DNA of 64,000 nucleotides from an uncultured Methanosarcinales archaeon (GTDB lineage Archaea > Nanobdellota > Nanobdellia > Woesearchaeales > GW2011-AR4): contig CAYXZV010000004.1 of the NCBI GenBank assembly GCA_964469645.1, positions 308 to 64,307 of the forward strand, in the 5' to 3' direction. Position numbers and translations under genes: made by a program. Shown here one piece after another: positions 649 through 47,750 of this stretch. The notes beneath the pieces were generated by a model. That model did not search any database and was not told the origin of the DNA. It saw nothing but the letters and a program-made list of their open reading frames with translations. Each line of letters begins with the position of its first letter. Positions within the stretch are counted from its first letter, which is position 1.

Positions 649-667
649 ATTTTACTCACCATTAAAT

Positions 668-775
668 CAGCGTCTGGGGACGTCTGCGACGTCCCTAAAC
701 GGACAACTTCTAAATGTTCAGTTTCGGGTCGTGCGGTACTTCGTACCGCACACTGTTGCACGGGTACGTGCAATA
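668..775. repeat. GC-rich modular hairpin repeat, mosaic copy (family A/B/C)
   Basis: Hairpins GGGACGTC-tgc-GACGTCCC (677-695), GTGCGGTAC-ttc-GTACCGCAC (731-751) and TTGCACG-ggta-CGTGCAA (756-773). Flanks CAGCGTCTGG and CAGTTTCGGG are shared with 16654-16779. Confidence 0.75.
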
Positions 776-3122: not shown

Positions 3123-5093
3123 ATGTCATTAAGGGTTATCTTTAATCTTATAGCAGTTTCTGGTGTTTTTAGTAAAAGTGATGCTGATTTAGATATATTG
3201 CCGCCTCCGCCTCCTTTTCCGGAGATAGGGGAAGAAGTAAAAAAAGCTAAAGTGAAGGAAAAAGAAAGAAAGAGGAAAAACAATAAGAAACAAAAGGAAG
3301 AGGTAAACAAGAAGAAAGAGATAGAAAAGAAGAAAAGGCAAGAAGAGCGGGAAAGAGGGAAAAAGGAGAAGGAACAGCAGAAACTCAAAAGATTGGGAGT
3401 GAAAAGGAAAGAAAAAGAGAAAATTAAGAGAGTTGAAATAAATAAGCAGAAGGCAAGAGATAGGAAGAAGAAAGTATTCGAATTCTTCCATAAAGTTGGT
3501 TTGGTTAAGACTGAAAAAGAGAAGAAAGAAAGAGGAAAGCAAAAACAGGAAGAAGGGAAGAAAAGGTTAGAAGAATTAAAGAAAGACGAAGCAGCTAAAA
3601 AAGTATTTAAAAATTTAGAAAAAAAACCCAAGGAATTGGGACAGATTAAAGAACCAGAACAGAAAAAAGTAAGGAAAAAATCAGTTTTATCTGGTATTTT
3701 TGGGAAGAAAGAAGAAAGACAGTTTAAAGAAGAATTAGAAGATCTTGAGAAAATAACTCCTAAGCCTAGAAAAGAAGAGAAAATTAAGAAACAGAAAGTA
3801 GAAGATAGTAAGAGTGAAAAACTTAATTTCTTTCATAAAGTTGGTTTGGTTAAGACTGAAAAAGGAAGGAAAGAAAGAGAAGAACAAAAACAGGAAGAAG
3901 AGAAGTTAAAGAGGAAACAAGAAGAGGAAAATAAAAAACAACAGGAGCTGCTAAGGAAAGAAGAAGAAAGGAAACGTTTAGGGGAAGAGAAGAAAAATCT
4001 AGAAGAATTAAAGAAGAAGAAAATAGAAATTCCAAAGTTTAAATTCCCTGCAAAAAAAGAAGAGGAAAAACATCACGAAGTTGTAAAGGCAGAAGATGAA
4101 ATACAAAGGGCAATTTCTGGTATTAAAAAATCGAAGAAGAAGAAAACAAGGATTATAAAAACCTTATTTAAGAAGAAAGAAGAAAAAAAAGAAAGATTGA
4201 GACAACAAGGAAGAAGGGTTGGTAAGAAGAAAACATTCAATTTCTTTCATGGATTAGGTTTGGTTAAGAGTGAGAAAGAGAAAAAATATCTAGAGGTGAA
4301 GAAACAAAGAGAAATTAAGCTTGAAAATCAACAACAGAAAAAAGCAGAGGAAGTAGAGCGGAAGGAAAGAGCAGAGAAAAAAAGGCAAGAACAAATTGGA
4401 AAAAAGAAGTACAAAGAATATCTGAAGGGAAAAGAAGAAACAAGGAAGAAAGCGGAACAGGAAAGAGTAAAGCGAAAGCCAGTTGAACAAAGAAAAGCAA
4501 AAGAACTGGAAAGAGAAGATATTTTAAAAGAACTTAAAGAATTAAAAATACCTCAAGTGGAAGTTCCTAAGAAACCTCTTTTTGGGAAGGTATTCGGCAA
4601 AAAGAAAGAGAAAACAGAGTTTGAGAAAGAGCTGCAGGATTTAGAAGAAATACAACCAATAAAAAAATCAAGGGGTGGAATAATCTCAAAAGTTCCTGAT
4701 TTTCCGGAGCTGAAAGAAATTGAAGAAGAGGTACAAAATCCAGAGCAAATAAGAAAAACAGAAGATGAGATACAAAAGGCTATTGCAGGAATAAAGGTAA
4801 AAAAGCCTTTCGTTGAGAAAAGATTATTCAGCAAGGAAAAAAGAGAAGAAATAGCGACACCGCATGTAATGCCAAGAACTTATGACAAGATAGATCATGT
4901 TGAGGATATTGAGGAGAAGATGCATAAAGCAAGGCTGGCGTTGATGGACTTTAAATTTGAAGAAGCAAAAATGATTTATATAGAGATTATGCAGGCATAT
5001 AATGCTTTGGATCCGAAAGACAGGCATAAGGTTTACAAGGACATTAAGGATTTATATTACGAAAGGAGAAGTGCTGAGAGGTTTGCTAAGTAA
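3123..5093 (+). CDS. 656-aa Lys/Glu-rich repeat protein with N-terminal polyproline motif and globular C-terminal helical domain
   Basis: SD-like aggggtg precedes the ATG. Contains DILPPPPPFPE and three FFH(K/G)(V/L)GLVK(T/S)EKE modules. An exact 31-nt DNA repeat occurs at 3489-3519 and 3834-3864. EDEIQ(R/K)AI(S/A)GIK occurs twice. Confidence 0.7.
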   Translation: MSLRVIFNLIAVSGVFSKSDADLDILPPPPPFPEIGEEVKKAKVKEKERKRKNNKKQKEEVNKKKEIEKKKRQEERERGKKEKEQQKLKRLGVKRKEKEKIKRVEINKQKARDRKKKVFEFFHKVGLVKTEKEKKERGKQKQEEGKKRLEELKKDEAAKKVFKNLEKKPKELGQIKEPEQKKVRKKSVLSGIFGKKEERQFKEELEDLEKITPKPRKEEKIKKQKVEDSKSEKLNFFHKVGLVKTEKGRKEREEQKQEEEKLKRKQEEENKKQQELLRKEEERKRLGEEKKNLEELKKKKIEIPKFKFPAKKEEEKHHEVVKAEDEIQRAISGIKKSKKKKTRIIKTLFKKKEEKKERLRQQGRRVGKKKTFNFFHGLGLVKSEKEKKYLEVKKQREIKLENQQQKKAEEVERKERAEKKRQEQIGKKKYKEYLKGKEETRKKAEQERVKRKPVEQRKAKELEREDILKELKELKIPQVEVPKKPLFGKVFGKKKEKTEFEKELQDLEEIQPIKKSRGGIISKVPDFPELKEIEEEVQNPEQIRKTEDEIQKAIAGIKVKKPFVEKRLFSKEKREEIATPHVMPRTYDKIDHVEDIEEKMHKARLALMDFKFEEAKMIYIEIMQAYNALDPKDRHKVYKDIKDLYYERRSAERFAK

Positions 5094-15375: not shown

Positions 15376-16614
15376 TTATATCAATTCTATTTTATTTATG
15401 TTGTCCTTAACATTAGAAGTTTTGATTGTGTCCTTTACCAGATCTTTTGCGTTGGTGAATTTTCTTTTTTCTACAGCAAAGAGCTTCTTGTTTTTTATGA
15501 ATGTCTTTTTGTGCTTTTTCTTAAACAAATCTGCATGATATTTGACATTTAACGGAGGTCCTGAGACTTCTATTGTTTTCGGCAGCTTGTCATTTTCCAG
15601 AGTATAATAGAATAAAGCTGAGGTGGAATGCCATAACATATCGCTTTCTTTTATCTTAAACCCATAGGCCATTAGTTTTTGCTCTATGAAATGAAAGGCT
15701 TTCAGCATCTTAGCTCCTGCAACATCCTCTTTCTTGTTCAATGGCTTTGCTTTGAGCATTACAAGCTTGTTTTTTCGGAATTTATTTTCTATATCTTTTT
15801 CTGTCAAAGTCTTTACTTCAAAAAAATCCTTTGACGGCTTTTTTATGAATGATGTTGCGCGGTGCTTTATGATCTCGAATTTCTCTTGGTCTAAAGCTGC
15901 TGCTGCATTCCTGTCTTTCTGCACCGGATCAATTACAATCAATGGGCTTGTCAGTTTGGATTTATTGATTTCCATCAGGACATTTTTTCCTTTGTAATAT
16001 CCTTTGACATCAATGGTTTTCTTGTCTTTCCATTTGGGTATTGCTTTTATCAGTTTTGGGAAAGATCCATAATTTATTGTCAGGATTTCACAAACATATC
16101 CTGAGAAGCCGCGGATATAGCTTTCAGCACCATAGACTTTTGCTGCCTTGAAGAACTGTTTTGTGAGCCTCACTTGGTCTATTATTTTCTTGTGTTTAAG
16201 TACAAAGATTGAGTGTAACGGAGAAACGTCTGTTATATTTCTAGCTTGCTCTGCTTTTTTTATTTCCAATATAGGCACTATCTCGAAAGTAAATTTTTGC
16301 TGCTTTATCTGGAAATAATCTCTTGAGCCATGCAATCTTGTTATCTTAAAATGCTTTTTCAGGAATTTTTCAAGGATGTCTGATAATTTATCGCTTTTAT
16401 CCTTAAACTTATTGTAATTGAATTTTACAAAGATATCCGCATCAAAAGTCTTTAGCCATGTGCCTTTCGCTCCTGAGCCGGCAAGAACAGCCTTTGCATC
16501 TTTTACATCTTTGTTTATCTTTGTTATTATGCTGTTGGCTTTGTCAAGTATTTCTTTTTCGTATTTCTCAGTTGGTTTTATCTCTTCTATTACCTCTGAA
16601 AGCAGCTTTTTCAT
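15376..16614 (-). CDS. cca: CCA-adding enzyme, archaeal class I tRNA nucleotidyltransferase
   Basis: AGSGAKGTWLKTFDADIFVKF (GSxxxxT...DxD) is present, and the 412-aa length fits. Confidence 0.85.
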   Translation of the reverse strand: MKKLLSEVIEEIKPTEKYEKEILDKANSIITKINKDVKDAKAVLAGSGAKGTWLKTFDADIFVKFNYNKFKDKSDKLSDILEKFLKKHFKITRLHGSRDYFQIKQQKFTFEIVPILEIKKAEQARNITDVSPLHSIFVLKHKKIIDQVRLTKQFFKAAKVYGAESYIRGFSGYVCEILTINYGSFPKLIKAIPKWKDKKTIDVKGYYKGKNVLMEINKSKLTSPLIVIDPVQKDRNAAAALDQEKFEIIKHRATSFIKKPSKDFFEVKTLTEKDIENKFRKNKLVMLKAKPLNKKEDVAGAKMLKAFHFIEQKLMAYGFKIKESDMLWHSTSALFYYTLENDKLPKTIEVSGPPLNVKYHADLFKKKHKKTFIKNKKLFAVEKRKFTNAKDLVKDTIKTSNVKDNINKIELI

Positions 16615-16653
16615 AGGATTTTGATATACTTGTTAATATAAAAAGATTTAGTT

Positions 16654-16779
16654 TTGTGCGCACCCGCACACTAGTGTATTGGGGTGTCTACGACACCCCG
16701 AGACGGCTCAGAATGCCGCAGTTTCGGGATGTCTTTGACATCCCCAGACGCTGTTTTACGGGCACGTAAAATTTTACGA
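16654..16779. repeat. GC-rich modular hairpin repeat, longest copy (family A/B/C)
   Basis: Hairpins GTGCG-cacc-CGCAC (16656-69), GGGGTGTC-tac-GACACCCC (16681-99) and GGGATGTC-ttt-GACATCCC (16726-44). Also TACG-ggca-CGTA and the palindrome CGTAAAATTTTACG. Confidence 0.8.
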
Positions 16780-16826
16780 TAACTATTTATATGTGTTTTT
16801 TTGTAAAGAGTTGAAGAGGTGTATGA

Positions 16827-18017
16827 ATGGCTAGTGTTTTGCTACTTTTGACTTATTTGGCGGTTATATTATTGATAGGTTTATTGACTTCCATTATCAG
16901 CCAGAAATTCAAGATTCCAAATATCCTGCTGTTGCTGCTTATAGGGATTGGCTTGGGAAGGGTGGATTACAGAGGAAGTTCCCTTATAGAGTTTCCAGAG
17001 GTTTTTATGACCGGCATAAGTATCCTGGCTTTGGTCATGATAGTTTTTGACAGCTCTTCCAGATTCAGCTTAAAAAAAGTGGATTATTTTTCTTTACATA
17101 CTTTATGGCTTTCCATCGTCTTTCTTATTTTTAATCTTATTTTCCTGACATTTTTTACAATGCTTATTTTTGGTGTAGAGTCTATTTTTCTCGCTTTGAT
17201 GTTTGCAGCGTTAATGGCAGGCACAAGCCCTGCGGTTGTGCTGTCAATGTTTAAGAATGTGAAAAATAAAGTATTCGATTTTTTAGGATTGGAGTCTTTG
17301 CTAAATACTCCGTTAGTTGTATTGATACCTTTCATAATTCTTGATTTAAAAAATGCCCTTAAAGGGGAGCTTATAATTGCGACTTTCATAGATCAGCTTG
17401 TGCCGTTGCTGCAGCAGTTTGTTGTTGGTGTTGGAGCTGGTGTCTTGATTGGCCTTATCATGTTCAAGTTCATGAGGCGTGTTTATTCTGTTGTATTGTC
17501 TCCGTTGGCCGTGATTACAAGTGCTTTATTGGCCTACATCATCGCAGAGAACCTGGATGGTAATGGAGTTTTAGCTGTTACCTCAATGGGATTGCTGTTT
17601 GGCAATGTCTATTTAAAGCAAAAATTCCAACTTAAAGAATTTGCTTCGGTTTTCTCAAATTCTTTGGAAATATTGGTCTTTGTCCTTATAGGGCTTATAG
17701 TCGCTATTCCATTTTCCGGTGATTTTTTCATAAAATCCATTCTATTGTTTGCTTTGTATCTTGTAATAAGGTTTTTTTCTGTTATTTTTTCTTTGAGAGG
17801 TATGGATTTTACATTAAAAGAGAAATTATTCATGTCATTGAATGCACAGAAAGGGATTGCTGTTGCTGTTGTAGTTTTTTCACTTGCTACACTGGAGATA
17901 GAAGGAATGAGCACAATACTTAATCTTTCATTGGCATTTATGCTATATTCTATTATCTTGTCTTCTGTTGTTTTGAGGGCTGTTAAGTATTTTGTCAAAG
18001 GTGTTGAAGAGAAGTGA
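16827..18017 (+). CDS. Monovalent cation/H+ antiporter (CPA family)
   Basis: 396 aa with about 11-12 TM helices and the typical Na+/H+ exchanger layout. Confidence 0.7.
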   Translation: MASVLLLLTYLAVILLIGLLTSIISQKFKIPNILLLLLIGIGLGRVDYRGSSLIEFPEVFMTGISILALVMIVFDSSSRFSLKKVDYFSLHTLWLSIVFLIFNLIFLTFFTMLIFGVESIFLALMFAALMAGTSPAVVLSMFKNVKNKVFDFLGLESLLNTPLVVLIPFIILDLKNALKGELIIATFIDQLVPLLQQFVVGVGAGVLIGLIMFKFMRRVYSVVLSPLAVITSALLAYIIAENLDGNGVLAVTSMGLLFGNVYLKQKFQLKEFASVFSNSLEILVFVLIGLIVAIPFSGDFFIKSILLFALYLVIRFFSVIFSLRGMDFTLKEKLFMSLNAQKGIAVAVVVFSLATLEIEGMSTILNLSLAFMLYSIILSSVVLRAVKYFVKGVEEK

Positions 18018-23155: not shown

Positions 23156-24117
23156 CATTTTTCTTCTTTCTCTTTGGATTCCTTTTTATCTTCTTGCTCT
23201 TTTTCAGGATGTAGGATCTTTTCTGCTTTCTCTTCTGCAATTTTCTCTTGTTCTTTGCTTAGCTTGATTCCAGGGCTTTCGGATTCCGGTTTTTCTTCTT
23301 TCTCTTTGGATTCCTTTTTATCTTCTTCTTTTATCTCTTGCAGTTTCTTCCTGTCTTTCTCTAATTGTTCTTCAGAAGGTTCATCAACTACATCCAAATC
23401 TCCAAGTTTTTCTTCTACAACTTCTGTTTTTGGAGATTCTTCTTTTTCCTCTTGATTTTGCTTTTCTAAATCCAATGGATTACCTTCCTCATCCAGTAAA
23501 TCTGCAGTTTTCTTTATCTCCTCATCCTTCCGTTTCTCTTCTTCAGCGCGTGCTTTCTGTTCTTCCTTGATCTGTTTGATTTCTGTCTCTTTTTCTTCAA
23601 TTGCTTTTGATATGCTTCCAAAATCCCTGAAAACCTCTTTCATTTTTTCCTGAGGAAGGTTAAAGTATTCAAAAAATTTGTCTGTAAGCTTGATCAGATT
23701 TGTACGGCCGTGCTTCTGCCGGGTTATATAGCCCATGGCTTCCAATTCTTTCAGATGATCGTAAGCTTTATTTGTCCTTATCTTAATCAGATCAGATTGC
23801 TTTATCGGATACTTAAAGGCTATAACGGCCAAAGTCTCAACTATTGTCTTGCTCAGTTCTGTCTCTGTCACTATTTTTTGCACTAAAGGCAAGAACGGCT
23901 CGCGAACAGTTAACTTCCATGAATCACCTTCATTAGCAATCATTACACTTGAGCCTTTGTCGTCATACTCTGTTTTCAGCTCGACAAGAGTGTTTTTTAT
24001 GTCGTCAGTTTTTGCGTTAGATAATCTGGAAAGTTCAATAAGGTCCATCTTTCTTCCGGAAGAAAAAAGCAATGCCTCTAGTTTACTTTTAAGAGTATTT
24101 ATCTCTTTTGTTTCCAT
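23155..24117 (-). CDS. scpB: Segregation and condensation protein B with long Lys/Glu-rich C-terminal extension
   Basis: LEALLFSSGRKMDLIELSRL and tandem winged helices are present. The tail contains an exact 38-nt direct repeat (23158-23195 and 23290-23327). Confidence 0.75.
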   Translation of the reverse strand: METKEINTLKSKLEALLFSSGRKMDLIELSRLSNAKTDDIKNTLVELKTEYDDKGSSVMIANEGDSWKLTVREPFLPLVQKIVTETELSKTIVETLAVIAFKYPIKQSDLIKIRTNKAYDHLKELEAMGYITRQKHGRTNLIKLTDKFFEYFNLPQEKMKEVFRDFGSISKAIEEKETEIKQIKEEQKARAEEEKRKDEEIKKTADLLDEEGNPLDLEKQNQEEKEESPKTEVVEEKLGDLDVVDEPSEEQLEKDRKKLQEIKEEDKKESKEKEEKPESESPGIKLSKEQEKIAEEKAEKILHPEKEQEDKKESKEKEEK

Positions 24118-28111: not shown

Positions 28112-28272
28112 GCGGAGGTGCCGGAGTGGCCAAACGGGACAGTTCGTTTGGTATGTAGGTACTAAATGAGTCTATACTCAAGAATTTGAGTGATGAGGCC
28201 AAAAGCCGATGAAATACTCGTGGGCCATCTGTTAGCTTAGTGCTTACCCAGGTTCAAATCCTGGCCTCCGCA
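28112..28272 (+). tRNA. Class-II (Leu/Ser-type) tRNA interrupted by about 75 nt of intervening sequence; anticodon unresolved (candidate Leu-CAA)
   Basis: Acceptor GCGGAGG/CCUCCGC plus discriminator A. D arm UGCCGGAGUGGCCAAACGG. T arm CCAGG-UUCAAAU-CCUGG. Long variable region (G)UUAGC-UUAGU-GCUUAC. 161 nt total against about 86 expected. Confidence 0.75.
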
Positions 28273-28320: not shown

Positions 28321-29649
28321 ATGATAGAAATCTATGCCGTAGGAGGCTATAATGAAGTCGGGAAGAACTGTTCAGCAATAAATGTTGACGGGGAAGTTGT
28401 GGTTATAGATCTTGGGATTCATCTTGAGAACTATATTAAGCTGACAGAAGATGAAGACCTGGTGAAAATAAATGCAGACAAGCTGATGGCTGTTGGCGCT
28501 GTCCCTAATATTTCTGTTTTGGACAAGATAAAAGATAAAGTAAAAGCCATCGTGATAGGGCACGCCCATCTGGATCATGTCGGAGCAGTTCCATATATTG
28601 CAGATAAATTTAACGCTCCGGTTGTATGTGCGCCTTATACTGCAGAGGTTACAAAAAGCATTCTAAAAGATGAAGGGATTAAACTCAAAAATGAGATAAG
28701 AACAGTCAACATCAATTCTTATTATACAGTCTCAGACAATATAAAAATTGAGTTTGTACACATTACTCATTCTATACCTCAAGCGGCTTTAGTTGTTGTG
28801 CATACAAAGTACGGGGTAATTGTCTATGCTAATGACTTTAAACTGGATTTGCACCCTACCTTGGGCAAGAAACCAAATTTCAAAAGAATGGAAGAAATAA
28901 GCAAGGAAAATGTTATTGCCTTAGTAGTTGAATCCACTTATTCACCAGATCAGAGAAAGATGCCATCAGAGCAGGTTGCAAAAGAGATGCTGAGGGATGT
29001 CTTGTTGGGAACAGACAATAAGGATAATCTAATTATCGTGACTACGTTTTCATCTCACATAGCCAGGCTTAAATCAATAATTGAATTTGGCAAGAAACTT
29101 AACAGGAAGATTATTTTTTTGGGAAGATCTCTGGCAAAATATGTCAAGGCTGCAGAAAATATAGGCATAGTGAATTTTTCAAAGGATGTTGAGATCGTAA
29201 AGTACAGCAGGCAAATAGAAAGGAAACTGAAGAAAGTTGATAATAACAGGAAAAAATATCTGCTTGTTACTACAGGACATCAAGGAGAGCCAAAATCAGT
29301 CTTATATAAGATTGCAAAAAGGGAATTTAAGTTTGATTTATATCCGGAAGATAATGTTGTGTTTTCCTGCAGGACAATACCAACGCCAACAAACATAGCT
29401 AACAGGGATGCTTTGGAAAATGAATTGAAACAAACTGGAGTGAGGATTTTTAAGGATATACATACATCAGGACATGCTGCTCGTGAAGACTTAAGGGATT
29501 TTATAAATATACTGAAGCCAAGGAATATCATCCCTTCTCACGGGAACAAGAATATGAGGGATTCCCTTGCAGAGCTGGCAGTTGAGATGGGGTATAAAAC
29601 TGACCAGAATATTTTCTTGTTAAATAACGGTCAAAAGGCTAGGTTCTAA
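28321..29649 (+). CDS. rnj: Ribonuclease J (beta-CASP metallo-beta-lactamase)
   Basis: HAHLDHVGAVPY (HxHxDH) is present, with beta-CASP motifs and terminal SGHA...H. Confidence 0.85.
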   Translation: MIEIYAVGGYNEVGKNCSAINVDGEVVVIDLGIHLENYIKLTEDEDLVKINADKLMAVGAVPNISVLDKIKDKVKAIVIGHAHLDHVGAVPYIADKFNAPVVCAPYTAEVTKSILKDEGIKLKNEIRTVNINSYYTVSDNIKIEFVHITHSIPQAALVVVHTKYGVIVYANDFKLDLHPTLGKKPNFKRMEEISKENVIALVVESTYSPDQRKMPSEQVAKEMLRDVLLGTDNKDNLIIVTTFSSHIARLKSIIEFGKKLNRKIIFLGRSLAKYVKAAENIGIVNFSKDVEIVKYSRQIERKLKKVDNNRKKYLLVTTGHQGEPKSVLYKIAKREFKFDLYPEDNVVFSCRTIPTPTNIANRDALENELKQTGVRIFKDIHTSGHAAREDLRDFINILKPRNIIPSHGNKNMRDSLAELAVEMGYKTDQNIFLLNNGQKARF

Positions 29650-32632: not shown

Positions 32633-32775
32633 AGGTTGGTGCGAAAATCTAATTCGTACGTGTGCGAGGCCTTAGCATGCTTCTCAACTTCGCTTCGCTC
32701 AGGTCGAACAGTACAATCCTGCGGAGCTATAAGAATTGGCAAATTACGCACAAGCATCGACTTTCGCACCAACCT
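32633..32775 (+). ncRNA. 143-nt GC-rich rod-like hairpin, candidate structured RNA (or MITE-like element)
   Basis: Closing stem AGGTTGGTGCGAAAATC / GACTTTCGCACCAACCT pairs 16 of 17. Inner stems are CGTGTGCG/CGCACAAG and GCTTCG-cu-CAGG/CCTG-CGGAGC. Apical loop is TCGAACAGTACAAT. The G-U pairs favour the + strand. Confidence 0.5.
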
Positions 32776-32821
32776 CTTTAAACCAATAATTATTTAAATA
32801 TAATTTTATAGGAAGGTATTC

Positions 32822-47662: not shown

Positions 47663-47747
47663 TTGTGCATGCCTGCACACTAGCGTATGGGGATATCTGA
47701 GATATCCCGAGACTGTTTCGTGCGGTAATGTAAAATCGGGCGCGTAA
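47663..47747. repeat. GC-rich modular hairpin repeat, short copy, inside the r-protein operon
   Basis: GTGCA-tgcc-TGCAC (47665-78), ACACTAGCGTAT, GGGATATC-tga-GATATCCC (47690-708) and GAGACTGTTTCG...GTAAAA. Confidence 0.8.
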
Positions 47748-47750
47748 AAA

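What the first reader, a model, noticed from the sequence alone, without database searches (positions are those of the whole stretch)
16654..16779. Archetype of a modular GC-rich hairpin repeat family whose stems co-vary between copies
Intergenic DNA here is otherwise AT-rich, yet three short GC-rich islands (668-775, 16654-16779, 47663-47747) share one module order. That order is HP1 (GTGCG-cacc-CGCAC), ACACTAGTGTAT, HP2 (GGGGTGTC-tac-GACACCCC), GAGACGGC..CAGTTTC, HP3 (GGGATGTC-ttt-GACATCCC), then CAGACGCTGTTTTACGGGCACGTAAAA. The single-stranded flanks are conserved, while the stems change on both arms at once. Examples are GTGCG/CGCAC vs GTGCA/TGCAC vs GTGCGGTAC/GTACCGCAC, and GGGGTGTC/GACACCCC vs GGGATGTC/GACATCCC vs GGGATATC/GATATCCC vs GGGACGTC/GACGTCCC. 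So pairing is preserved rather than sequence. That is the signature of a structured RNA or of a protein-recognised DNA/RNA hairpin (REP/BIME-like), not of neutral decay. No TnpA/RAYT-like, Cas or other obvious partner gene is in the window. This copy fills the divergent gap between cca and a cation antiporter.
Basis: seen in the sequence. Interest (0 to 1): 0.72.

Follow-up and report, generated by a model that had tools for sequence, protein, structure and literature searches.

The report
REP-like hairpin repeats in marine Nanoarchaeota
The GC-rich island is one copy of a dispersed, fast-changing family of small hairpin-forming DNA repeats in marine DPANN archaea, resembling bacterial REP/BIME elements; it is not a known RNA gene, and its copies sit unusually tightly against gene starts.

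Summary
Three intergenic islands (650-773, 16654-16771, 47663-47750) are 48-55% GC against 28% background and share hairpin modules far beyond chance.

The repeating entity is a 51-nt unit: GTYTC, an 8-3-8 hairpin, a 9-nt linker (CAKACGCTG) and a 7-4-7 hairpin. The flagged copy is two such units tail to tail. Copy A lies on the opposite strand and copy C is truncated.

Twenty-two distinct units from several marine Nanoarchaeota/Woesearchaeota contigs align without gaps. 97% of stem cells pair and 8 of 15 pairs show double changes.

No Rfam family matches. No transposase, RAYT or Cas gene lies in the window.

The family is unstable. At the rpl14-rpl24 junction, strains with 99.5% identical rpl24 either carry a 140-nt element or have a 7-nt spacer. 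Strains with 95-98% identical rpl24 carry different internal modules, and units are found nested inside units.

Single units always point toward the downstream gene. Their last hairpin ends 0-2 nt before the ATG, or 8-14 nt before a TATA box.

Best reading: a REP/BIME-like mosaic palindromic repeat with an unknown mobilising enzyme, possibly co-opted as a 5' leader. REP/RAYT membership is unproven. Novelty is moderate.

The parts
16654..16771 (.). Copy B: a complete dyad of two inverted 51-nt units, lying between the divergent cca and Na+/H+ exchanger genes.
   Evidence: Sequence read. The model matches 16654-16704 (-) at 70.2 bits and 16721-16771 (+) at 73 bits. Flanking genes were identified by Pfam.
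16655..16670 (+). Outer short hairpin of the left unit: TGTGCG-CACC-CGCACA. On the minus strand the loop reads GGTG.
   Evidence: helix 2.
16681..16699 (+). Long hairpin of the left unit: GGGGTGTC-TAC-GACACCCC.
   Evidence: helix 1, 100% paired over 22 units.
16700..16725 (+). Centre of the dyad: GAGAC, then the small hairpin CGGC-TCAGAAT-GCCG, then GTTTC. GAGAC and GTTTC are the conserved inner tags of the two units.
   Evidence: GTYTC is nearly invariant.
16726..16744 (+). Long hairpin of the right unit: GGGATGTC-TTT-GACATCCC.
16745..16753 (+). Conserved linker CAGACGCTG. Its mirror image in the left unit is ACTAGTGTAT at 16670-16679.
16754..16771 (+). Outer short hairpin of the right unit: TTTTACG-GGCA-CGTAAAA.
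16637..16644 (-). TATA box (TTTTTATA) of the leaderless cca gene, at -30..-23 from its ATG. The left outer hairpin ends about 10 nt upstream of it.
   Evidence: Read. The spacing matches the other leaderless genes of the window. Assigning it as a TATA box is an inference.
16786..16793 (+). TATA box (TTTATATG) of the Na+/H+ exchanger gene, 14 nt downstream of the right outer hairpin. GAGGTG and the ATG at 16827 follow.
   Evidence: inference.
650..773 (-). Copy A: a dyad in the opposite orientation. Its parts are a degenerate outer hairpin at 650-668 that now contains GGTGA and abuts the ATG (648) of an NMD3-domain gene; the long hairpin GGGACGTC-TGC-GACGTCCC at 677-695; a 9-bp hairpin GTGCGGTAC-TTC-GTACCGCAC at 731-751; and the outer hairpin TTGCACG-GGTA-CGTGCAA at 756-773.
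   Evidence: I1; 650-700 minus strand at 63.6 bits; 721-773 plus strand at 28 bits.
47663..47750 (+). Copy C, between rpl14 and rpl24. The left unit is intact: TGTGCA-TGCC-TGCACA at 47664-47679 and GGGATATC-TGA-GATATCCC at 47690-47708. The right unit is reduced to a remnant ending GGGCGCGTAAAAA directly before the rpl24 ATG (47751).
   Evidence: 47663-47713 minus strand at 71.7 bits. The orthologous full dyad is seen in L138. The same truncated form occurs in three other samples.

Best explanation
**What it is.** The island is one copy of a dispersed, non-coding, hairpin-based repeat family of marine Nanoarchaeota (Woesearchaeota-like DPANN archaea). It behaves like bacterial REP/BIME/REPIN elements.

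**Building block.** The 51-nt unit reads 5'-GTYTC / 8-3-8 hairpin (GGGNNNNN, usually a GNA loop closed by C-G) / CAKACGCTG / 7-4-7 hairpin (GGNR loop)-3'. Units occur in four arrangements:
- alone;
- as tail-to-tail dyads, as at 16654-16771;
- nested inside one another;
- in arrays up to about 270 nt, together with two further hairpin types.

**Shown.**
- The copies are gained, lost and rebuilt from a shared pool of modules much faster than the flanking genes change.
- The linkers and loops are conserved while the stems differ in sequence.
- The unit is polar with respect to genes. Its short hairpin faces the downstream gene. It ends 0-2 nt before the start codon, or 8-14 nt upstream of the BRE/TATA box.

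**Inferred.**
- The family spreads or recombines through single-stranded hairpin intermediates. These would be recognised by an enzyme encoded elsewhere in the genome, with an HUH/Y1 transposase of the RAYT or IS200/IS605 kind as the obvious candidate.
- The stems co-vary because whole hairpin alleles are copied between loci, and because only self-complementary variants fold and are propagated. RNA-level selection at each locus is not the cause.
- Copies inside operons are co-transcribed. The start-proximal hairpin is then at least tolerated, and perhaps used: as a 5' barrier to RNase J-type 5'-3' decay, or as a presenter of a GGG Shine-Dalgarno-like loop.
- The opposite orientation would put a T5-7 run, an archaeal terminator signal, into the transcript. 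That could explain the polarity.
For: **Family and structure.**
- 22 distinct canonical units from at least 8 contig lineages align without gaps.
- The model finds further degenerate and nested units.
- The window lineage has about 4 loci in about 84 kb.

**Mosaic and nested arrangements.**
- L126 820-1100 is a 270-nt array of alternating hairpins.
- L136 12700-12800 and L035 3763-3818 carry a unit or short hairpin inside the long hairpin.

**Turnover at the rpl14-rpl24 junction.**
- L142 (140-nt element) and L143 (spacer TAAACAAAAAATG) share 99.5% identical rpl24 and 49/52 identical rpl14 ends.
- L138, L142 and L144 have 95-98% identical rpl24 but different internal modules.
- L141 and L145 are empty, and L139 carries an unrelated hairpin.

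**Cross-lineage conservation.** The window and L138 have synonymous-site identity of only 58-71%. Yet the 26-nt outer hairpin plus linker is identical between them.

**Repeat behaviour in assemblies.** Several contigs end in or next to elements: L004, L123, L125, L126 and L144.

**Polarity.**
- All roughly 10 single units are sense to the downstream gene.
- The short hairpin ends 0-2 nt from an ATG at about 12 loci. Pfam alignments starting at residues 1-11 confirm those N-termini.

**Position relative to promoters.** Dyads B, L129, L126 and L127 lie between divergent promoters and so are not obviously transcribed. This argues for a DNA-level element.

**Loops.** 18 of 22 loops are GNA and 21 of 22 are closed by C-G. 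That motif is known to give very stable DNA mini-hairpins (PMC3201870, PMC13037366).

**Exclusions.** There is no Rfam match.
Against: - No mobilising enzyme was found. There is no Y1/HUH, TnpB, integrase or Cas gene in the window or its 20-kb flanks (Pfam lists). There is no RayT-like hit in about 370 kb of related DNA. The genes next to elements are housekeeping genes.
- The defining REP tags (GTAG or CGTC) are absent.
- No target-site duplication or clean element boundary could be defined from the single filled/empty pair.
- The polymorphism could reflect deletion or recombination rather than transposition.
- The very tight juxtaposition to start codons suggests function rather than pure selfishness. 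So does the over-representation of ribosomal and ribosome-biogenesis genes downstream (7 of about 20). So does a conserved BRE/TATA-like AAAACCGTAAAATA upstream of single units.
- The four non-Watson-Crick stem pairs that are wobbles are all G.U on the unit-sense strand and none is A.C. This is a weak hint (p about 0.06) of a strand-specific, possibly RNA-level, constraint.
Confidence: 0.55

Rival explanations
1. The unit is mainly a functional cis-acting cassette for gene expression. It would combine a promoter-like AAAACC-GTAAAATA box, a palindrome centred on the predicted transcription start, and a start-codon-proximal hairpin with a GGG (Shine-Dalgarno-like) loop. In this reading it acts as a 5' leader, processing site or stabiliser for highly expressed genes, and mobility is secondary or absent.
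For: - The short hairpin ends 0-2 nt before verified start codons at about 12 loci, always in sense.
- The downstream genes are enriched for r-proteins and biogenesis factors: S19e, L31e, L18e, L24, S8e, NMD3 and fibrillarin.
- AAAACCGTAAAATA is conserved 4-6 nt upstream of 6 single units. It resembles the local BRE/TATA motifs AAAACC-TATATATA and AAACCC-TTATAAAA.
- Where the element replaced the native spacer, the essential rpl24 gene must still be translated.
- G41 and G42 of the loop are invariant. Local SD-like motifs are GGGG(T).
- The wobble asymmetry is 4:0.
Against: - The same gene (rpl24) does without the element in a 99.5%-identical strain and in three other lineages.
- Internal modules are swapped freely between close strains.
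- Dyads occur in either orientation inside operons: in L122 the other end faces the ATG.
- Several dyads lie upstream of both flanking promoters.
- Using the local TATA-to-start spacing of 30 nt, the predicted transcription start falls inside the long hairpin, so that hairpin would not be in the RNA.
- No expression data are available.
Confidence: 0.25
2. The stems co-vary with no selection on structure and no dedicated enzyme. In this reading the hairpins are created and kept perfect by intra-strand template switching during replication. The family spreads only by homologous recombination or gene conversion between existing copies.
For: - Stems are almost perfectly Watson-Crick. The long hairpin is 100% paired, with only 2 wobbles in 176 cells.
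- Only about 7 recurring stem alleles exist.
- Differences between close strains are block replacements.
- Template switching is documented to create and maintain perfect hairpins (PMC8794818).
Against: - It does not explain new loci: the filled versus empty rpl14-rpl24 site, or units at unrelated genes in different genomes.
- It does not explain the conserved unpaired linkers and GNA/GGNR loops across lineages whose synonymous sites are near saturation.
- It does not explain the strict polarity toward gene starts.
Confidence: 0.1
3. The islands are independent small structured RNA genes, that is, paralogous sRNAs of about 90-125 nt.
For: - The predicted folds are strong: z of -7.0 and -4.7 on the strands on which B and A align.
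- The islands are GC-rich in an AT-rich genome, as with known archaeal ncRNAs.
- Stem co-variation is present.
Against: - There is no Rfam match, even at E of 10 or less, apart from chance hits far below threshold.
- The elements have no promoter of their own. The TATA box next to B is positioned and oriented for cca.
- Both strands fold equally well, because the element is a dyad.
- Copies are truncated, nested, rearranged or absent between close strains.
- Half-units occur alone.
Confidence: 0.05
4. The palindromes are double-stranded operator sites for a dimeric transcription factor acting on the adjacent promoters.
For: - The 8-3-8 and 7-4-7 inverted repeats have operator-like geometry.
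- Many copies lie 8-14 nt upstream of a BRE/TATA box.
Against: - Half-site sequences change freely while remaining self-complementary. There are 7 alleles of the long stem and at least 4 of the short stem. That is incompatible with base-specific recognition by one factor.
- Many copies lie inside operons directly before an ATG.
Confidence: 0.05

Closest known systems
REP / BIME / REPIN elements of Proteobacteria with their RAYT (TnpA-REP) transposases (PMC2817692, PMC3116915, PMC3333891, PMC3733652)
   Same: - Short GC-rich extragenic palindromes in many copies.
- Inverted pairs (REPIN-like dyads) and mosaic clusters with alternating orientation and conserved linkers (BIME-like).
- Singlets that look like halves of dyads.
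- Stem variants within one family.
- Copies located inside operons.
   Different: - Found in DPANN archaea rather than bacteria.
- No GTAG or CGTC tag; the conserved tag is GTYTC.
- Each unit has two different hairpins joined by a conserved 9-nt linker.
- No RAYT was found.
- Copies face the 5' ends of genes and abut start codons, rather than lying mostly 3' of genes.
CGTC-type REPs (PMC3733652)
   Same: - 8-9 bp stems with short loops.
- Mostly head-to-head dimers.
- No associated transposase gene identified.
   Different: - In CGTC REPs the first two stem pairs are A-T, loops are 4-5 nt, and there is a CCA tail.
- Here stems start with GGG, loops are 3 nt, and a second hairpin follows.
- Membership was not demonstrated.
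Modular intergenic repeats such as pneumococcal BOX elements and neisserial Correia/NEMIS elements (from my own knowledge, not checked here)
   Same: - Modular or mosaic build.
- Strong secondary structure.
- Insertion close to gene starts.
- Co-transcription with the downstream gene, with effects on promoters and mRNA processing.
   Different: - Correia elements have 26-bp terminal inverted repeats and a TA duplication; neither is seen here.
- BOX modules are unrelated in sequence.
IS200/IS605-derived non-autonomous elements (PATEs of Haloquadratum; from my own knowledge) and the IS200/IS605 end hairpins (PMC3333891, PMC6006769)
   Same: - Subterminal hairpins.
- No target-site duplication.
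- No classical terminal inverted repeats.
- An archaeal precedent exists.
   Different: - No TnpA or TnpB is nearby.
- No defined left and right ends or target tetranucleotide.
- The elements are much shorter.
Large-scale MITE census reporting a Woesearchaeal genome with 105 MITEs per Mb (PMC11602168), and generic palindrome counts in archaea (RepRanger, PMC12306157)
   Same: Both indicate that DPANN/Woesearchaeal genomes can be dense in short inverted-repeat elements.
   Different: - Those surveys give counts only.
- This family, its unit structure, its polarity and its polymorphism are not described there.
- I could not check whether their sequence sets contain it.

Membership tests
REP/REPIN-RAYT system | Short extragenic palindromes repeated many times per genome | tested here: inconclusive
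   The family is certainly multi-copy and intergenic. There are 4 loci in about 84 kb of this lineage, and 2-3 loci per 8-14 kb in L035, L126 and L129. The genome-wide copy number is unknown because no complete genome was available.
REP/REPIN-RAYT system | Conserved unpaired GTAG (or CGTC) tag at one foot of the hairpin | tested here: not met
   The tag next to the long hairpin is GTYTC (GTCTC 12, GTTTC 9, GTTTA 1 of 22). There is no GTAG. CGTC occurs only incidentally within CCGTCTC or inside stems.
REP/REPIN-RAYT system | Inverted doublets (REPINs) and mosaic clusters (BIMEs) | tested here: met
   Tail-to-tail dyads are seen in B, A, L066/L129, L124, L138, L142 and L144. L126 holds a 270-nt alternating array.
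REP/REPIN-RAYT system | A cognate single-copy RAYT (Y1 HUH transposase) gene, usually flanked by REPs | tested here: inconclusive
   None is present in the window or its flanks (Pfam lists). None was found next to element clusters, and there is no tblastn hit to E. coli RayT in 370 kb. Less than 10% of any one genome was examined, and tblastn is insensitive at this distance.
MITE (classical) | Terminal inverted repeats plus target-site duplication | tested here: not met
   The two ends of the dyad are only about 50% identical as inverted repeats; they are structurally but not sequence equivalent. No duplication is seen at the filled versus empty rpl14-rpl24 site, nor consistently at the other left and right flanks.
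IS200/IS605-derived non-autonomous element | Subterminal hairpins, no duplication, insertion 3' of a fixed short target, and TnpA in the genome | tested here: inconclusive
   Hairpins and the lack of duplication fit. A possible preference for the A-run before start codons was observed. No fixed target could be defined and no TnpA was seen.
Any Rfam RNA family | Score at or above the family's gathering threshold | tested here: not met
   The whole window gives only tRNA-Gly. In E-value mode on 16600-16850 the best hit is 28 bits against a gathering score of 50, to a flavivirus element, which is a chance match.
CRISPR array | Regularly spaced identical direct repeats with unique spacers of about 30-40 nt, usually with cas genes | tested here: not met
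   Only two hairpins 45 nt apart, in inverted unit context. There are no arrays and no cas genes.
Structured cis-regulatory RNA (riboswitch or leader) | Conserved at orthologous positions upstream of the same genes, with independent compensatory changes | tested here: not met
   At rpl24 the element is present, absent or rebuilt among close relatives. Changes between strains are block replacements.

The most novel reading that the evidence does not exclude
The 51-nt unit could be a mobile gene-start cassette. It would be a transposable module that lands directly in front of start codons of highly expressed genes in genome-reduced, mostly leaderless DPANN archaea. It would supply a BRE/TATA-like box, a hairpin at the transcription start and a start-proximal hairpin with an SD-like GGG loop. 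Repeat spread would then rewire transcription, translation initiation or mRNA 5' stability. Mobilisation would be by an enzyme unrelated to known RAYTs.
Probability: 0.15. Interest if true: 0.75.

Novelty: new variant of a known kind. Interest (0 to 1): 0.5.

Why it matters
- **A gap in what is described.** DPANN archaea have tiny, streamlined genomes in which selfish repeats are expected to be rare. REP/BIME-type elements have been characterised only in bacteria. A conserved yet rapidly reshuffled hairpin-repeat family shared by several marine Nanoarchaeota lineages shows that such elements persist there.
- **Practical use.** The family gives a marker for strain typing. It also explains some assembly breaks in these MAGs.
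- **An open question.** What mobilises the elements, given that no RAYT is in sight?
- **A possible regulatory role.** The elements are welded to start codons and promoters of ribosomal and other core genes. They may therefore influence gene expression in organisms that have few regulators.
- **A caution for RNA discovery.** Co-varying stems in dispersed repeats are not by themselves evidence for a structured RNA.

Tried and rejected
**Known RNA families.**
- Rfam gathering scan of the whole window found only tRNA-Gly.
- Rfam E-value mode on copy B gave only chance hits.
- ARAGORN found one tRNA.

**Collection scans.**
- My first scan of genome contigs used too loose a pattern (TCNNNGANNNCCCCAKACGCTR).
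- Three patterns on viral contigs gave 0 hits, so there is no sign of a viral vehicle.

**Partner enzyme.**
- tblastn with E. coli RayT against 370 kb of related DNA gave only chance hits inside the rpl5 gene.
- Pfam on 20 genes flanking elements found only housekeeping genes.

**Readings considered and rejected.**
- CRISPR remnant: no array and no cas genes.
- Integron attC site: no cassette context and no GTTRRRY/RYYYAAC ends by eye.
- Origin-recognition boxes: one copy lies upstream of cdc6 in L124, but the others are unrelated to cdc6.
- C/D or H/ACA sRNAs: no boxes.
- Intrinsic terminator: the T-run is not adjacent to the GC hairpin.
- Canonical promoter for leaderless transcription of the abutting gene: the sequence at -30..-23 from those ATGs is GC-rich linker, not a TATA box.

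**Unresolved.** I could not define exact element ends or a target site from the one filled/empty pair.
Full report
**1. Check of the observation**

The other two islands share its modules.
- The window is 35.8% GC. Intergenic DNA outside the islands is 27.6% GC. The three islands are 55% (B), 51% (A) and 48% (C).
- The degenerate long-hairpin pattern GGGRYRTCNNNGAYRYCCC occurs four times, only in these islands, against 0.01 expected.
- B folds with z = -7.0 (plus strand) and A with z = -4.7 (minus strand, the orientation in which it aligns with B); the opposite strands give -6.5 and -5.1.
- The flanking genes are a CCA-adding enzyme (15376-16614, minus) and a Na+/H+ exchanger (16827-18017, plus).

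Four corrections apply.
- Copy A is inverted relative to B.
- The 'tail' TTTTACG-GGCA-CGTAAAA is a fourth hairpin.
- The whole element is a quasi-palindrome.
- C is truncated.

**2. Anatomy**

The repeating entity is a 51-nt unit, read 5' to 3':
- GTYTC;
- a long hairpin (8 bp, 3-nt loop, always starting GGG);
- a 9-nt linker (CAKACGCTG or close variants);
- a short hairpin (7 bp, 4-nt loop GGNR).

Copy B is two units tail to tail (16654-16704 minus, 16721-16771 plus). The inner GAGAC and GTTTC tags flank a small central hairpin. Because the two long hairpins of B are similar, the minimum-energy fold cross-pairs them. In A they differ, so only the local hairpins are the conserved feature.

**3. 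The family beyond the window**

The window is from a marine DPANN archaeon.
- Identical contigs occur in Tara Oceans and other marine assemblies.
- The closest named rpl24 relatives are Nanoarchaeota/Woesearchaeota MAGs.

Recovery of further copies:
- A specific pattern found 11 metagenome loci.
- The over-loose genome scan yielded four true loci in two MAGs.
- nhmmer and a covariance model then recovered 22 distinct canonical units. They align without a single gap. Degenerate and nested units were found as well.

In the window the model finds nothing beyond A, B and C. One more element lies about 1 kb beyond the left edge of the window, before ribH (L136 12700-12800).

**4. Co-variation**

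Results on the 22 units:
- 97% of stem cells form standard pairs. The long hairpin is 100% paired.
- 8 of 15 pairs show changes on both sides.
- 42 cells are double-changed, against 11.8 in column shuffles (0 of 500 reach it).
- At most 7 cells are double-changed when the partner is slid.

Three caveats apply.
- The long stem exists in only about seven alleles (ATGTC, ATACC, ACGTC, GTATC, ATATC, GTGTC, ATGCT). These recur across loci and genomes, so the number of independent events is small.
- Stems are almost purely Watson-Crick, with four wobbles in 330 cells.
- Between close strains the elements differ by replacement of whole modules (section 6).

Pairing is thus preserved, but this does not by itself show selection on an RNA structure.

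**5.

- All roughly 10 single units are in sense orientation to the downstream gene.
- At about 12 independent loci the short hairpin ends 0-2 nt before the start codon, as ...CGTAAAA(A)ATG.
- The genes concerned encode S19e, a PDCD5-like protein, L31e, L18e, L24, an NMD3-domain protein, RibH, PurQ, PyrI, an ABC ATPase and fibrillarin.
- Pfam alignments begin at residues 1-11, and the L24 N-terminus is conserved in element-free relatives. These ATGs are therefore real starts.

In the remaining cases the short hairpin ends 8-14 nt upstream of a BRE/TATA box. This holds for both sides of B, both sides of the L129 dyad, and L120, L126 and L127.

Most genes of the window that have their own promoter are leaderless, with the TATA box at -30..-23 from the ATG. 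By that ruler:
- B lies between the two divergent core promoters and has no promoter of its own;
- copies inside operons (C, L138, L122, L035) must be co-transcribed.

Six single units also carry AAAACCGTAAAATA 4-6 nt upstream of GTYTC. This motif resembles local BRE/TATA boxes. Its CCGTAAAA is complementary to the 5' arm of the short hairpin. Its meaning is unresolved.

**6. Dynamics**

The rpl14-rpl24 junction gives a natural series.
- The window lineage has the truncated copy C, identical in four samples.
- L138, L142 and L144 (rpl24 95-98% identical to one another, 84% to the window) have full dyads at the same place, with different internals.
  - Relative to L138, L142 has a different long-hairpin allele and loop on the right.
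  - On the left of L142, a broken outer hairpin is followed by a different unit.
- L143 has rpl24 99.5% identical to L142, and its last 52 nt of rpl14 match at 49/52. It has only TAAACAAAAAATG between the genes.
- L145 and L141 are also empty. L139 has an unrelated hairpin.
- Between the window and L138, synonymous sites are 58-71% identical. The 26-nt outer hairpin plus linker is 26/26 identical.

Units also occur inside the long hairpin of other units (L136, L035 3763). L126 holds a 270-nt array with two further hairpin types, NNNNGTGC-AAA-GCACNNNN and GGTAC-NNN-GTACC. Several contigs end in or beside elements.

This is the behaviour of an active or recombinogenic repeat family, not of a fixed regulatory site.

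**7. What it is not**

- No Rfam family matches.
- No CRISPR-like array is present.
- There are no hits in viral contigs.
- No transposase, RAYT, TnpB, integrase or Cas gene lies in the window or its flanks or next to clusters elsewhere.
- There is no RayT-like tblastn hit in 370 kb. This is a weak negative.

**8. Most likely mechanism**

Shown:
- a polar, modular hairpin repeat;
- conserved unpaired parts and variable self-complementary stems;
- turnover far faster than that of the flanking genes;
- tolerance directly in front of essential genes.

Inferred:
- Propagation or recombination goes through single-stranded hairpins recognised by an unidentified enzyme, by analogy with REP/RAYT and IS200/IS605 (PMC3333891, PMC2817692).
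- 18 of 22 long-hairpin loops are GNA, and 21 of 22 long hairpins are closed by C-G, on the unit-sense strand. This is the motif of exceptionally stable DNA mini-hairpins (PMC3201870, PMC13037366). It fits a single-stranded DNA stage but does not exclude RNA.
- The polarity may come from a target preference for the A-run preceding start codons. It may also come from counter-selection of the reverse orientation, which would place a T5-7 terminator-like run in the transcript.
- Co-transcribed copies may protect the 5' side of cistrons. An RNase J gene is present at 28321-29649.
- Alternatively they may present a GGG loop where local SD-like GGGG(T) motifs normally lie.

Rivals are listed separately. 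The main one is that the unit is chiefly a functional gene-start cassette. That reading overlaps with domestication of a mobile repeat.

**9. Comparison with known systems**

- The family works like REP/BIME/REPIN elements: dyads, mosaics, singlets and stem variants.
- It fails one defining membership feature, the GTAG or CGTC tag (PMC3733652). A second, the cognate RAYT, could not be established.
- It lacks the terminal repeats and duplications of classical MITEs.
- A MITE census noted a Woesearchaeal genome with 105 MITEs per Mb (PMC11602168). A palindrome survey counted 'REPs' in Euryarchaeota and Crenarchaeota (PMC12306157). Neither describes this family.

**10. Verdict**

- The feature is real.
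The structured-RNA half is not.
- It is best classed as a new variant of a known kind.
- Interest is moderate (0.5). It would rise if the start-codon coupling proves functional or if a new mobilising enzyme is found.

Noticed in passing
window 28112-28272 (+): An intron-containing tRNA gene, missed both by the default ARAGORN run and by Rfam. The acceptor, D and T arms are clear (GCGGAGG...CCTCCGCA). With introns allowed, ARAGORN calls a 79-nt intron, which contains a box C-like GTGATGA. The 'Gly(ccc)' assignment is doubtful because the gene has a long variable arm.
   Followed up: partly
window 32634-32778 (+): A GC-rich intergenic island closed by a 14-bp long-range helix (AGGTTGGTGCGAAA ... 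TTTCGCACCAACCT), about 145 nt long. There is no Rfam hit even at E of 1 or less. It is a candidate structured RNA unrelated to the hairpin family.
   Followed up: partly
window-wide, upstream regions: Most genes with their own promoter have a TATA box at -30..-23 from the ATG and no Shine-Dalgarno motif, so they look leaderless. Genes that do have leaders use GGGG(T)/GAGGTG-like motifs 4-8 nt before the ATG.
   Followed up: partly
L141 7131-7252 and 19270-19746 (related Woesearchaeon, r-protein operon): A different, AT-richer set of hairpin repeats sits in operon spacers: GAAAATC-AAA-GATTTTC and GGAAATGC-AAA-GCATTTCC, flanked by CAGTGTAC/GGTACAC. L139/L140 have yet another hairpin (GGAAAGCG...CGCTTTCC) at the rpl14-rpl24 junction. 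Intergenic hairpin repeats seem general in this group.
   Followed up: no
L144 1-61: In this contig the rpl24-proximal dyad is preceded by sequence that is not the 3' end of rpl14. This is either a rearrangement at the element or an assembly join at a repeat.
   Followed up: no
window 3123-5093 (+): A 656-aa, extremely Lys/Glu-rich ORF with internal repeats of about 125 nt spaced 345-414 nt apart (families D1-D3). A related strain (L135) has a 439-aa version.
   Followed up: no
window 23158-23195 and 23290-23327: A perfect 38-nt direct repeat 132 nt apart inside the 3' part of the ScpB-like gene (D11). It corresponds to a duplicated acidic/lysine-rich C-terminal segment.
   Followed up: no
L124 866-987: One dyad lies 53 nt upstream of an Orc1/Cdc6 gene, the usual neighbourhood of archaeal replication origins. 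The other copies show no such link.
   Followed up: no
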